A DNA stretch of 64,000 nucleotides, taken from contig CM069140.1 in the NCBI GenBank assembly GCA_035221665.1, positions 3,038,001 through 3,102,000 of the forward strand, in the 5' to 3' direction. This DNA is from Okamejei kenojei. Its lineage: Eukaryota. Position numbers: made by a program. Shown here one piece after another: positions 30,001-33,000 of the stretch (the first letter of the stretch is position 1; each line of letters starts with the position of its first letter).

Positions 30001-33000
30001 AGAGAACATGTACGTTTTTGGAGTATGGGAGAAAATCTGAGCACCCGGAGAAAACCCATGCAGTCACGTATAAACTCCATACAGGCACCACCCATAGTCG
30101 GGATCAAACCCATGTCTCTGGCATTGTAGGCAGCAATTCTACCGCTGCGCCACCATACCGCCCTGTATAATGCACCACAGGCATAATTTCTATTCCATAC
30201 ATCCCTACAATGAGCAGAAAGGAAAAGCCTTTAGTTTTAGGTGAACTGAGGTCCCTCAGGATGTAAACGGTGTCCAAGTCAATATAAGATTGGGATGTAT
30301 TGGGTAAGTACAGAATTACCGACAGATTCAGTCTAACTCGGGTTCTCTCTGTTCCCAGATGGAGTTGAGAGTCGTCCTCAAGTCTACCTCCTCCCCCCTT
30401 CATTGGATGAGGTGGAGACGGATGAGACGGCCACCTTGACGTGCCTGGTCACCAGATTCTCTCCTGCAGACATCTATGTGGCCTGGATGGCCAACGACAC
30501 CCTTCTGAAGACAGGGATCGTGAACCAGCCCGTGACCAAGGACACCAGGAATGGGTGGAACACCATGACCAGTCAGTTGAAGGTTTCTCCAGAGGAGTGG
30601 AACAGTGGCACCACCTTCTCCTGTGTTGTGGGACACGGCTCCATCACAACCAGCCTATTCAGAAGCATCAATAAATCTCACAACAAACCCACCCTGGTCA
30701 ATGTCTCACTTGTTCTGACTGATAGCTTTAAATCTTGTGTGTAACATGATTCATTTCTCAAACACTTGTTTTGTTCATTTCTGGATTTATTAACTGACCC
30801 AGAGGATGATGGGTTAGTTCCCTAACACATCATCAAATTGTGAACCTTTGTAAATCATTAAAAACATAATACCACACGAGATACAAATTAAGCTACAGCC
30901 ATGATTCACCACAAATGTCTGAGCTTCTGGATACATTTACAGAACTTTTTTTGCCATGATTTTAATCAGAACAAATTTTAATCCTGTATGGGATCACACG
31001 AGGTATTAAATCTATGTATGTGTCAATGTACCAATACAAGTTCAATAAATGTGATGTGAAAAAGGTTTTGTGTGCGTGTCTGTGACTGGTGTGTTTTGGG
31101 TGGCAGTACATGGGTAGCTTGGGATGTGAGGTGTGCACATTCTAGGTGAAGCACATTCTGGGAGAAAGAGGTGTTGTTGGATCAATGTGTCCAAAACCTC
31201 CCACAATTGGTTGTTCTCACACCCACGCCTGGACCAGTTGAAGATAGAGATTGATTGTGGTTGTTGGCCATTAACTCCATTATCACTGTGCCATGCGACT
31301 GTCAGGGTGACACAAGGTGAACTGATTGGACCATGGTCTTTCCTAGCCCAGCTGTGACAATGTACCTGATGCAAGCTCCCACACGGCAAACCAAATCTGG
31401 CCAGATCTCCTGCGTCAGGTAGTCCTTACTTTCTCCCTCTTTCCCCTCCCCTTCCCAGCTCTCCAACAGCCCACCTGTGTTTAGCTGTTTGGGTTTGGGG
31501 TAAATATTAGCTCAGAACACTCGTGGTCATGTCGTGGCATTGCTGACATCTACCTGAGAAGCACCTCCTTAAAGCCTCATGACAGCAGCTTTCATGAGGT
31601 GACATTGCTCACCACTGAGCCACACGTGACATCTGTGTCTAACAAGGGGGATGGTTGTTTGAGGAGTCTCTGTCCTCAGTGGGTGTGCACGGATGATGTT
31701 GAATAAAAGAGACAACTCATCATTGGTAACTCTTCTATTCCAATGTTACATTTAAACATCTGCCTGTCGGTGCTTAAAGTAAATCTGTTCTTGAATCTGC
31801 TGCTACGTGCTTTCAAGCTTCTTGTATCTTCTGGAGAGGGGAGTAGAGACAATGACTGGGATATGAGGGTTCCTCGATGATGTTGGCTGCTTTCCAGAGG
31901 CAGCGTGAAGTGTAGATGGTGGAAGGAGTAATGGTTGAGAGTGGGGGATGCAATGTCCATTGTGTGGGCCGAGGGTTGTTTGGTTTATTGTCACGTAGAC
32001 CGAGGTACAGTGAAAATGCTTTTTGTTGTGTGCTAACCAGTCACCAGAAAGACTATATAATTACAATAAAGCCATCCACAACATACAGATACATGATAAA
32101 GGGAATAATGTTTTGTGCAAGGTAATTGCTTGATAACAGCTGGGAAGAAACTGTCCCTGAATCTGGAGGAGTACATTTTCACACTTCTATACCTTTTGCC
32201 TGATGGGAGAGGGGAGAAGAGAGAGTGGACAGGATGCGACTGGTCCTTGATTATGCTGCTGGCCTTGCCGAGGCAGCATGAGATGCAAATGGAGTCAGTG
32301 GAAGGGAGGTTAGTTTGTGCGATGATCTGGGCTGCAACCACAATTTGCTGCCATTTCTTTGATGGAACTGTTCACAAACCATACTGTGATGCATCCGGAT
32401 AAAGTGCTTTCCATGGTGCACTAAAATTAAATACCAATAAAGAATTAAACAGCATGTAGTTTTATTTGTGTTAGTGTTATTGTATTTGTATAAGTGTTGT
32501 GGAGAATGTATTGTGTTCGATTATAAGAAATTAGAGAGTGCGCATAATTTCAAGGGTCAAACTCTGTATAAATACTGTGGAATTTCAGAGCAGCAGGTAA
32601 CTGGGACTGTGCTGCCCTCATTGTGCACACGTCAATAAAGTGAGTCTGGAAAATGAATGCAAGTCGTCAGAGTCCAGTTGATCGGTGACGAGAACACCAG
32701 ACTTTGTCTGGTTTGTAAGCTTCCTATTTCTCATCTGCAGAATTGTCTGTCTTTATCCAAACCCCCTCCATTGAAGAGATTTGGATCAACAAGACCGCTA
32801 CTGTGGTGTGCGTGGTAATGGGTGCTGATCTGGGCCATGTCCAAATCTACTGGCAAGTGAGCGGAAGGGAGAGAACTACAGGAGATGTGACCCACCAACC
32901 GAGAGGAGAAAGGACCCAAGACAAAGTGAGCAGTAAACTCCGGTGCAGTGTGGAGGAATGGACCAGTGGGGTGGAGGTTGTGTGCTCTGCCCAACGATCT

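What the first reader, a model, noticed from the sequence alone, without database searches (positions are those of the whole stretch)
30661..30744. CH6 lacks the cryptic internal donor that normally links the last CH exon to TM
Known: in IgM-type genes the terminal CH exon has G|GTAAA (Gly-Lys) just before the tailpiece for membrane splicing. Seen: here the site reads TCT CAC AAC AAA CCC (S-H-N-K-P) with no GT. Nearby GTs are weak and mostly phase 0, which is incompatible with the phase-1 CH7 and TM1 acceptors. Inference: CH6 is secretion-only, so the secreted/membrane choice is made between alternative 3' exon blocks rather than by the classical donor-versus-poly(A) competition.
Basis: partly seen in the sequence, partly recalled or inferred. 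Interest (0 to 1): 0.7.

Follow-up and report, generated by a model that had tools for sequence, protein, structure and literature searches.

The report
Skate IgW secretion-only last exon
The last constant-domain exon of this skate antibody (IgW) gene can only make the secreted protein, because membrane forms are built by skipping it; this is the usual design of IgW/IgD genes, not a new one.

Summary
CH6 (30359-30744) reads TCT CAC AAC AAA CCC at the boundary between the domain and the secretory tail, with no GT. None of its 25 GTs scores like a real donor: best 4.3 bits, against 7.2-10.3 for the ten real donors.

The window is a skate IgW/IgX heavy-chain cluster. It carries V-D-J, CH1-CH2, a short-form secretory exon, CH3-CH6, two tandem CH3'/CH4' pairs (CH7-CH10), then TM1 and TM2.

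The missing donor is a property of the class. Of 30 elasmobranch IgW proteins, 28 read S-K at this junction, one reads N-K and one G-K. In 13 database proteins carrying this TM1, it follows a CH4-type domain in 10, CH2 in 1 and CH6 directly in 0. Two isoforms of one Mustelus gene are 544/546 identical through CH4, then run to CH5 or to TM1.

This is already described for shark IgW, teleost IgM and mammalian IgD.

The one less ordinary feature is four intact C-domain exons between the tailpiece exon and TM1. No transcript data for this locus could be checked.

The parts
12697..13140 (+). Leader exon (from 12697) and V exon (12844-13140) of the cluster. The recombination signal heptamer CACAGTG starts at 13141. 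The V reading frame shifts by one base near 12995-13005.
14220..14262 (+). J segment (YWGAGTSLTVTS). D-type heptamers lie at 13409 and 13427, between V and J.
20011..20319 (+). CH1 exon. Phase-1 donor AAG|GTTAGT, 8.45 bits.
21456..21764 (+). CH2 exon. Phase-1 donor ATG|GTGAGT, 10.33 bits. In relatives this donor can join the short secretory exon, CH3 or TM1.
23203..23330 (+). Short-form (IgX/IgW-short) cysteine-rich secretory exon with a phase-1 acceptor. An AATAAA at 23321 lies inside its last codons.
25617..25913 (+). CH3 exon (type A).
26460..26777 (+). CH4 exon (type A). Phase-1 donor AAG|GTAGGC, 8.36 bits. This is the inferred branch point between the secreted path (CH5) and the membrane path (CH7 or TM1).
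27770..28090 (+). CH5 exon, on the secreted path only.
30359..30744 (+). CH6 exon with the secretory tailpiece and TAA stop. It has no internal donor. The finding lies at 30661-30744.
31044..31049 (+). AATAAA followed by a GT-rich stretch. This is the likely poly(A) signal of the long secreted mRNA. ATTAAA also occurs at 30857 and 31005.
32741..33043 (+). CH7 exon (type-B CH3', GADL..VQIYWQV). Intact, with phase-1 acceptor and donor.
33461..33778 (+). CH8 exon (type-B CH4'). 79-81% identical to the pair next to TM in a Pristis gene model.
34772..35074 (+). CH9 exon, a tandem copy of CH7 (2 of 303 bases differ).
35492..35809 (+). CH10 exon, a tandem copy of CH8 (6 of 318 bases differ).
41740..41879 (+). 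TM1 exon. Phase-1 acceptor and phase-0 donor AAG|GTAACG. An alternative phase-1 acceptor would start the exon at 41749.
45844..45855 (+). TM2 coding part (VQQ, then stop). AATAAA follows at 46023.

Best explanation
This is one IgW (IgX) heavy-chain cluster of a skate, and CH6 is a terminal exon used only for the long secreted form.

Every CH donor and every downstream acceptor is phase 1. The pre-mRNA can therefore end in one of three blocks:
1. CH2 joined to the short cysteine-rich secretory exon.
2. CH4 joined to CH5-CH6, with the tailpiece and poly(A) near 31.05 kb.
3. A CH2, CH4 or CH8/CH10 donor joined to TM1-TM2, skipping CH5-CH6 and its poly(A) site.

The secreted/membrane decision is thus a choice between alternative terminal-exon blocks. 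Recognition of the CH5 acceptor plus the CH6 poly(A) site competes with skipping to a distal acceptor. It is not a contest between an internal donor and a poly(A) site inside one exon.

Shown here: the exon anatomy, phases, site strengths and poly(A) hexamers, and the same exon joins in proteins of related species. Inferred: that this locus makes those joins, and which membrane isoforms include CH7-CH10.
For: Gene identity:
- The ten CH open reading frames are all Pfam C1-set domains.
- V, D and J lie within 1.6 kb, which is the cluster organisation.
- CH6 is 95% identical to proteins of Leucoraja and Rhinoraja, and 98% to an unnamed record.

Splice sites:
- CH6 has no donor-like GT: maximum 4.34 bits, against 7.2-10.3 for real donors.
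- All CH donors and the CH5, CH7, CH9 and TM1 acceptors are phase 1.

Relatives:
- Among 30 IgW proteins of 18 named species plus one unnamed record, the junction is S-K in 28, N-K in 1 and G-K in 1. Heterodontus IgNAR and echidna IgA read G-K.
- 29 of the 30 end at the tailpiece.
- Of 13 TM1-bearing proteins, TM1 follows a CH4-type domain in 10, CH2 in 1, no Ig domain in 2 short models, and CH6 directly in 0.
- Mustelus isoforms X7 (membrane) and X3 (secreted) are 544/546 identical up to ...TVKNIQ at the end of CH4, then diverge.

Terminal blocks in the window:
- The short secretory exon is 83% identical to the tail of the Leucoraja IgX cDNA protein.
- Poly(A) hexamers follow each of the three blocks.

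Literature (passages read):
- Cartilaginous-fish IgW has cell-bound forms with 2 and 4 C domains.
Against: - No transcript data for this locus or species were available, so every exon join here is inferred.
- One automated Pristis model (P0006) runs from the CH6 tail (...SFKSC) through a 32-residue bridge into CH3'/CH4' exons and TM. Some pipeline therefore accepted a join from CH6 to downstream exons.
- GT 30737 is phase 1 and would read in frame into TM1.
- The weight matrix is recalled and imperfect. It gives up to 8.18 bits to internal GTs of other exons.
- The V exon carries an apparent frameshift, so this cluster may not be expressed from its own V.
- Most relatives are automated gene models, several from the same species, so the counts are not independent.
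Confidence: 0.85

Rival explanations
1. CH6 does feed membrane forms, through a weak unconventional donor at the very end of the tailpiece: GT 30737 in phase 1, or a 30739-type site as in the Pristis model. Some membrane IgW would then carry all six C domains plus most of the tail.
For: - GT 30737 (CTT|GTGTGT, 4.34 bits) is phase 1, and T+CC reads Ser into TM1.
- The Pristis model P0006 leaves CH6 after ...SFKSC and continues to TM.
Against: - The site scores 3-6 bits below every real donor.
- Joined to CH7 or CH9 it gives T+AA, a stop.
- The 32-residue bridge of P0006 has no counterpart between 30745 and 32740: best tblastn E = 0.13 over 23 residues.
- 29 of 30 IgW proteins end at the tail, and 0 of 13 TM1 proteins have CH6 next to TM1.
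- The reviews read list only 2-C and 4-C membrane IgW.
Confidence: 0.06
2. CH7-CH10 are not part of the membrane mRNA. They would be spare or decaying duplicates, or be used only for extra-long secreted forms after rearrangement between clusters. Membrane IgW from this locus would then be made only by CH2-to-TM1 and CH4-to-TM1 joins. CH6 would still be secretion-only.
For: - Shark membrane forms use the same CH3-CH4 exons as the secreted form.
- A Mobula membrane model (P0005) has a type-A pair next to TM.
- In Rhinoraja P0021 and Pristis P0019 the type-B pairs lie upstream of CH3, inside secreted-type models.
- Between the two copies, 7 of 8 differing codons are nonsynonymous.
Against: - All four exons are open, keep their C1-set matches, and have donors of 7.9-8.2 bits with good acceptors.
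- CH8 is 79-81% identical to the Pristis pair next to TM, more than CH1, CH2 or CH5 are to Pristis (70-73%).
- Type-B pairs abut TM in 2 of 3 batoid multi-domain membrane models, P0004 and P0006.
- The exons are less diverged (0.7-1.9%) than the intron and flanks (3.6-8%).
Confidence: 0.35
3. The donor is missing because this cluster is a decaying pseudogene, not because of IgW design.
For: The V exon has an apparent one-base frameshift.
Against: - All ten CH exons, the short secretory exon, TM1 and TM2 are intact.
- The non-Gly junction is shared by 29 of 30 IgW proteins across sharks and rays.
- The frameshift sits in a run of G and could be an assembly slip.
Confidence: 0.03

Closest known systems
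Elasmobranch IgW (IgX, IgNARC), the IgD orthologue
   Same: - Cluster V-D-J-C layout with six CH domains.
- The canonical tail ...KSH(S/N)KPTLVNVSLVLTDSFKSC.
- A cysteine-rich short-form exon after CH2.
- Membrane forms joined from CH2 or CH4, not CH6.
Sources; review passages in PMC4279169 and PMC5192425. Rumfelt 2004 and Zhang 2013 are recalled or known only through citations; neither was read.
   Different: As I recall the Zhang 2013 abstract, nurse-shark clusters have the tailpiece exon as the 3'-most C exon. Here four more C exons lie between it and TM1.
Coelacanth IgW1 locus
   Same: Exons encoding the secreted chain come first. Tandemly duplicated C exons follow, and then the TM exons (review passage, PMC5192425).
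   Different: The coelacanth locus is a translocon, and its duplicated unit is C3-C4-C5, four times. Here the locus is a mini-cluster and the unit is a CH3'/CH4' pair, twice. The primary coelacanth paper was not read.
Teleost IgM membrane splicing
   Same: TM1 is joined to the ordinary donor of the penultimate C exon. The last C exon, with its tailpiece, is secretion-only (PMC3570791 passage; PMC6795676 passage).
   Different: Teleost IgM skips one exon. Here two exons (CH5-CH6) are skipped, with optional extra exons before TM1.
Human IGHD
   Same: The secreted end and the membrane end lie in separate downstream exon blocks, chosen together with the poly(A) site (PMC7555362, section 2.6.4 passage).
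   Different: The IGHD secretory exon encodes only nine residues. Here the secreted block is two full Ig domains plus a mu-type tailpiece.
Classical IGHM-type composite last exon
   Same: A mu-like tailpiece (KPTLVNVSLV...C) and a poly(A) site between the last CH exon and TM1.
   Different: The splice site at the 5' limit of the tailpiece, which PMC7555362 describes for IGHM, is absent here.

Membership tests
Elasmobranch IgW/IgX heavy-chain cluster | V, D and J segments with recombination signals close to one set of C exons (cluster organisation) | tested here: met
   The V end YYCARD is followed by CACAGTG at 13141. Heptamers lie at 13409 and 13427. The J segment (YWGAGTSLTVTS) is at about 14229, and CH1 is at 20011.
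Elasmobranch IgW/IgX heavy-chain cluster | Six C1-set CH domains, the sixth carrying the canonical secretory tail | tested here: met
   Pfam C1-set matches for CH1-CH6. CH1-CH6 are 81-98% identical to P0029 and 86-97% to Leucoraja P0020.
Elasmobranch IgW/IgX heavy-chain cluster | Short-form cysteine-rich secretory exon after CH2 | tested here: met
   Exon 23203-23330 is 83% identical to the tails of the Leucoraja IgX cDNA protein P0048 and of Amblyraja P0047.
Elasmobranch IgW/IgX heavy-chain cluster | IgW-type TM exons | tested here: met
   TM1 is 82-84% identical to proteins named IgW transmembrane form in Pristis. TM2 reads VQQ then stop, as in shark models.
Mu-type composite terminal exon switch | Internal 5' splice site at the boundary between the last domain and the tailpiece | tested here: not met
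   There is no GT at 30676-30690. The best GT in the tail region scores 3.05 bits (phase 0), or 4.34 bits five bases before the stop.
Mu-type composite terminal exon switch | Membrane chain keeps the last CH domain | tested here: not met
   CH6 lies next to TM1 in 0 of 13 TM1-bearing relatives. This was tested on relatives, not on transcripts of this locus.
Alternative terminal-exon switch (IgD-type, teleost-mu-type) | Secreted and membrane ends lie in separate exon blocks, each with its own poly(A) signal | tested here: met
   Short secretory exon with AATAAA at 23321; CH6 with AATAAA at 31044; TM2 with AATAAA at 46023.
Alternative terminal-exon switch (IgD-type, teleost-mu-type) | A shared upstream donor compatible in phase with both blocks | tested here: met
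   The CH2 and CH4 donors and the acceptors of the short secretory exon, CH5, CH7 and TM1 are all phase 1.
Alternative terminal-exon switch (IgD-type, teleost-mu-type) | Transcripts of this locus that show the alternative joins | not testable with these tools
   No RNA-seq or cDNA of this species could be searched. The joins are seen only in relatives.

The most novel reading that the evidence does not exclude
In skates and other batoids, the IgW B-cell receptor may carry C domains that the long secreted antibody of the same cluster never contains. These would be the type-B CH3'/CH4' pairs, encoded by exons placed between the secretory terminal exon and TM1. Membrane and secreted IgW would then differ in whole Ig domains, not only in their tails. 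The coelacanth IgW1 layout would be an independent parallel or an ancient shared state.
Probability: 0.35. Interest if true: 0.5.

Novelty: new member of a known kind. Interest (0 to 1): 0.28.

Why it matters
The finding gives a clean genomic example of how an IgD-lineage antibody gene switches between secreted and membrane forms. It picks between whole terminal exon blocks, in a class whose last exon still carries a mu-like tailpiece.

It also gives coordinates for every alternative end of one skate cluster. That makes isoform-specific probes and long-read checks straightforward.

The core point is not new: IgW membrane forms are already known to lack CH5-CH6. Only the four C exons lying after the tailpiece exon might add something, if they prove to be specific to the membrane form.

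Tried and rejected
Papers not held:
- Zhang 2013, Ohta and Flajnik 2006 and Hsu 2016 could not be read. The primary descriptions of IgW genomic structure therefore went unread.
- Supplementary files were not consulted.

Literature searches:
- Seven searches were run. Searches looked for IgW gene structure and membrane/secretory splicing; one search looked for the IgD/IgM precedents.
- (IgW, Leucoraja, Amblyraja, batoid, IgH clusters) listed 20 of 264 papers. No title or abstract start among them dealt with batoid IgW gene structure. The other 244 were not seen.

Computations that led nowhere:
- The bridge peptide of the Pristis model P0006 was sought between CH6 and CH7. Only chance-level matches were found, best E = 0.13.
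- Selection on CH7-CH10 was judged from the two tandem copies. Only 8 codons differ, 7 of them nonsynonymous, so the result is inconclusive.
- Splice scoring used only a recalled weight matrix. No curated scorer was on hand.

- No DNA-level comparison of this codon pair across IgW, IgNAR and IgM genes of other species.

Left out on purpose:
- Exons were searched one by one. The joined coding sequence was not assembled or searched.
- Structure and complex prediction were not used, because no claim here depends on them.
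Full report
**What the window holds**

The + strand between about 12.7 and 46 kb carries one immunoglobulin heavy-chain cluster.
- A leader and a V exon end in YYCARD, followed by the heptamer CACAGTG at 13141. Further heptamers lie at 13409 and 13427. A J segment (YWGAGTSLTVTS) lies near 14229.
- Ten open reading frames downstream all match Pfam C1-set (E from 1e-7 to 1e-20).
- With splice sites placed, the exons are:

| Exon | Coordinates |
|---|---|
| CH1 | 20011-20319 |
| CH2 | 21456-21764 |
| CH3 | 25617-25913 |
| CH4 | 26460-26777 |
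| CH5 | 27770-28090 |
| CH6 | 30359-30744 |
| CH7 | 32741-33043 |
| CH8 | 33461-33778 |
| CH9 | 34772-35074 |
| CH10 | 35492-35809 |

- A hydrophobic exon, TM1, lies at 41740-41879. A four-codon TM2 (VQQ, then stop) lies at 45844-45855 behind a good acceptor.
- An exon at 23203-23330 encodes the cysteine-rich tail of the short skate IgX form. It is 83% identical to the tail of the Leucoraja erinacea cDNA protein and to that of an Amblyraja radiata protein.

**Which organism**

Searching exon by exon, CH6 is 98% identical to an unnamed record. It is 95% identical to Leucoraja erinacea and Rhinoraja longicauda proteins, 85-89% to other batoids and 70-81% to sharks. TM1 is 82-84% identical to Pristis proteins named IgW transmembrane form. 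I take the window to be a skate IgW (IgX) cluster. It is not human. The joined spliced coding sequence was not built or searched, and every search used a single exon.

**The observation**

At 30676-30690 the sequence reads TCT CAC AAC AAA CCC, in frame with the stop at 30742. It encodes S-H-N-K-P at the start of the tail KPTLVNVSLVLTDSFKSCV. There is no GT at this junction.

I scored all GTs with a nine-position donor matrix written from recalled vertebrate consensus frequencies.
- The ten real donors of this gene score 7.20-10.33 bits.
- The 25 GTs inside CH6 reach at most 4.34 bits.
- Within 30661-30744 there are six GTs. Four are phase 0, one (30741) is phase 2, and one (30737, CTT|GTGTGT, 4.34 bits) is phase 1.
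- A generic NNG|GTAAAN site would score 3.6-9.1 bits, median 5.5.

The matrix is crude. It gives up to 8.18 bits to some internal phase-0 GTs of other exons. The scores alone therefore do not prove that a site is unused.

One point was missed: GT 30737 is phase 1. It would give a stop with CH7 or CH9 (T+AA) but would read Ser into TM1 (T+CC).

**Is it more than chance?**

One missing dinucleotide is not evidence by itself. The comparison with relatives is.
- Among 30 IgW-type proteins from 18 named species plus one unnamed record, the residues before the tail proline are S-K in 28. They are N-K in 1 (Heterodontus, the same as the window) and G-K in 1 (a Narcine protein).
- The two non-IgW hits of the same search, Heterodontus IgNAR and echidna IgA, read G-K.
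- These rows are not independent. Six come from Chiloscyllium punctatum, and most are automated models.
- A review passage states that membrane IgNAR has 3 or 5 C domains, while secreted IgNAR has 5 (PMC4279169). That fits a usable donor in the last IgNAR exon and none in IgW. This link is my inference, and it was not tested at DNA level.

**What joins to TM1**
- Thirteen database proteins contain this TM1. I mapped each onto the window's exon translations, taken separately. TM1 follows a CH4-type domain in 10 and CH2 in 1 (Hemitrygon, P0003). In 2 short Pristis models no Ig domain precedes it, and CH6 never sits directly next to it.
- Two isoforms of one Mustelus asterias gene are 544/546 identical from the leader to ...TVKNIQ at the end of CH4. 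X3 then continues into CH5-CH6 and the tail, and X7 continues into TM1.
- Reviews state that cartilaginous-fish IgW has cell-bound forms with 2 and 4 C domains (passages read in PMC4279169 and PMC5192425).

**Against this reading**
- One Pristis model (P0006) leaves the CH6 tail after ...SFKSC. It crosses a 32-residue bridge and continues through two CH3'/CH4' pairs to TM. That bridge has no counterpart between 30745 and 32740 of the window: best E = 0.13 over 23 residues. I regard it as a modelling artefact, but I cannot exclude a real rare join.

**How it most likely works**

All CH donors end with one codon base (G), and all downstream acceptors are phase 1. Any CH donor can therefore be joined in frame to any later exon. 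The window offers three terminal blocks, each with its own poly(A) hexamer:
- the short secretory exon, with AATAAA at 23321 inside its last codons
- CH6, with AATAAA at 31044 followed by a GT-rich stretch
- TM2, with AATAAA at 46023

The CH4 donor (26778) can pair with any of these acceptors:
- CH5, across a 992-base intron; the junction codon GAT gives Asp, as in relatives
- CH7, across 5,963 bases; GAA gives Glu, as in the ...Q-ELSVF joins of relatives
- TM1, across 14,962 bases

The switch is thus of the alternative-terminal-exon kind. Defining CH5-CH6 and cleaving at its poly(A) site yields the secreted chain. Skipping them yields the membrane chain. Poly(A)-site strength still matters, but no donor inside CH6 takes part.

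The exon anatomy and the joins in relatives are shown. Use of those joins at this locus is inferred.

**The extra exons**
- CH7-CH8 and CH9-CH10 form a tandem duplicate: 32618-34080 against 34649-36138, 94.5% identical over 1,492 aligned columns.
- They are a second type of CH3/CH4 pair (GADL..VQIYWQV), about 75-79% identical in DNA to CH3-CH4.
- All four are open, with donors of 7.9-8.2 bits.
- CH8 is 79-81% identical to the pair next to TM in Pristis. CH1, CH2 and CH5 are only 70-73% identical to Pristis.
- A type-B pair abuts TM in 2 of 3 batoid multi-domain membrane models (Mobula P0004 and Pristis P0006, but not Mobula P0005). It is absent from the Mobula hypostoma secreted model P0014.
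- In Rhinoraja P0021 and Pristis P0019, however, type-B pairs lie upstream of CH3 in secreted-type models.
- The two copies differ less in the exons (0.7-1.9%) than in the intron and flanks (3.6-8%). But 7 of the 8 differing codons are nonsynonymous, so selection cannot be judged.
- Whether these exons enter membrane mRNA here is open. I put it at roughly one in three.

**Comparison with what is known**
- Human IGHM uses a splice site in CH4 at the 5' limit of the tailpiece. IGHD has a separate small secretory exon, and its membrane exons lie further downstream (PMC7555362, section 2.6.4 passage).
- Teleost IgM joins TM1 to the Cmu3 donor and drops Cmu4 (PMC3570791 passage).
- In coelacanth IgW1 the first seven exons encode the secreted chain. 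Tandem C-exon duplications follow, and then the TM exons (PMC5192425 passage).
- The present locus fits this IgD/IgW pattern.
- From my recollection of the Zhang 2013 abstract, nurse-shark clusters have the tailpiece exon as the last C exon. C exons placed after the tailpiece in a cartilaginous fish may therefore be undescribed. That paper could not be read. A search for batoid IgW genomic work listed 20 of 264 papers, none on that subject by title or abstract start, so I make no claim about what is in print.

**Verdict**

The feature is the normal design of IgW rather than a peculiarity of this locus. It is a new member of a known kind, of modest interest. The only part with some novelty potential is the possibly membrane-specific C exons after the tailpiece exon.

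Noticed in passing
12990-13010: The V exon reads ...GLEWVGG in one frame and [17 protein letters not shown]...YYCARD in another. This looks like a one-base frameshift in a run of G. It could be an assembly slip or a pseudogene V.
   Followed up: partly
23203-23330: This is the short-form IgX/IgW secretory exon (GGECSKCSKCLPKFFYQSNLNVTFLDGSTRQYHCWAGKCEIK). Its poly(A) hexamer AATAAA (23321) lies inside its last codons.
   Followed up: yes
30670-30675: An AATAAA hexamer lies inside the CH6 coding sequence (ATC AAT AAA, the conserved I-N-K of RSINKSH), about 70 bases before the stop. It is visible. Whether it is ever used was not examined.
   Followed up: no
32618-36138: The CH3'/CH4' block is a tandem duplicate, 94.5% identical with a period of about 2,031 bases. 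The exons are less diverged than the intron and flanks, yet 7 of the 8 differing codons are nonsynonymous.
   Followed up: partly
41700-41760: The open frame ahead of TM1 reads ICPEAGTDFTGEEGK, where batoid relatives have E(I/V)CTDLTGEEGK. No AG precedes ATT TGT. The first AG after a CTAAC motif is at 41738, and a second phase-1 AG is at 41747. The exact exon start is therefore uncertain by 9 bases.
   Followed up: partly
26778-26815, 33779-33885, 35810-35880: Reading through the CH4, CH8 and CH10 donors gives short open tails (GRLLGFIPFSTL; GTVLGFTLMITS...). AATAAA hexamers lie downstream at 27334, 34034 and 36094. These could be the ends of four-domain secreted forms.
   Followed up: no
26460-26777 and 33461-33778: CH4 domains of non-skate sharks and rays match the window's CH8 better than its own CH4. 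The type-B copy therefore looks the more conservative one.
   Followed up: no
58783-59727: An intact 314-residue Tc1/mariner-type transposase frame: Pfam HTH_Tnp_Tc3_2 at 4e-22 and DDE_3 at 2e-12.
   Followed up: partly
16445-16936 and 42414-42848: Fragments of LINE elements: a reverse transcriptase, and an endonuclease inside the TM1-TM2 intron. Similar reverse-transcriptase-like frames occur in several introns.
   Followed up: partly
62300-64000: Long overlapping proline/serine-rich repeat frames on the + strand (units such as ...PPSWLPPIP...). They have no Pfam match, and the GC skew here is strongly negative at -0.59.
   Followed up: no
3813-4400: Simple CA/GT-rich sequence, giving long T-H-T-H frames, lies next to two masked runs (2962-3461 and 3540-3812). 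The N runs were left untouched.
   Followed up: no
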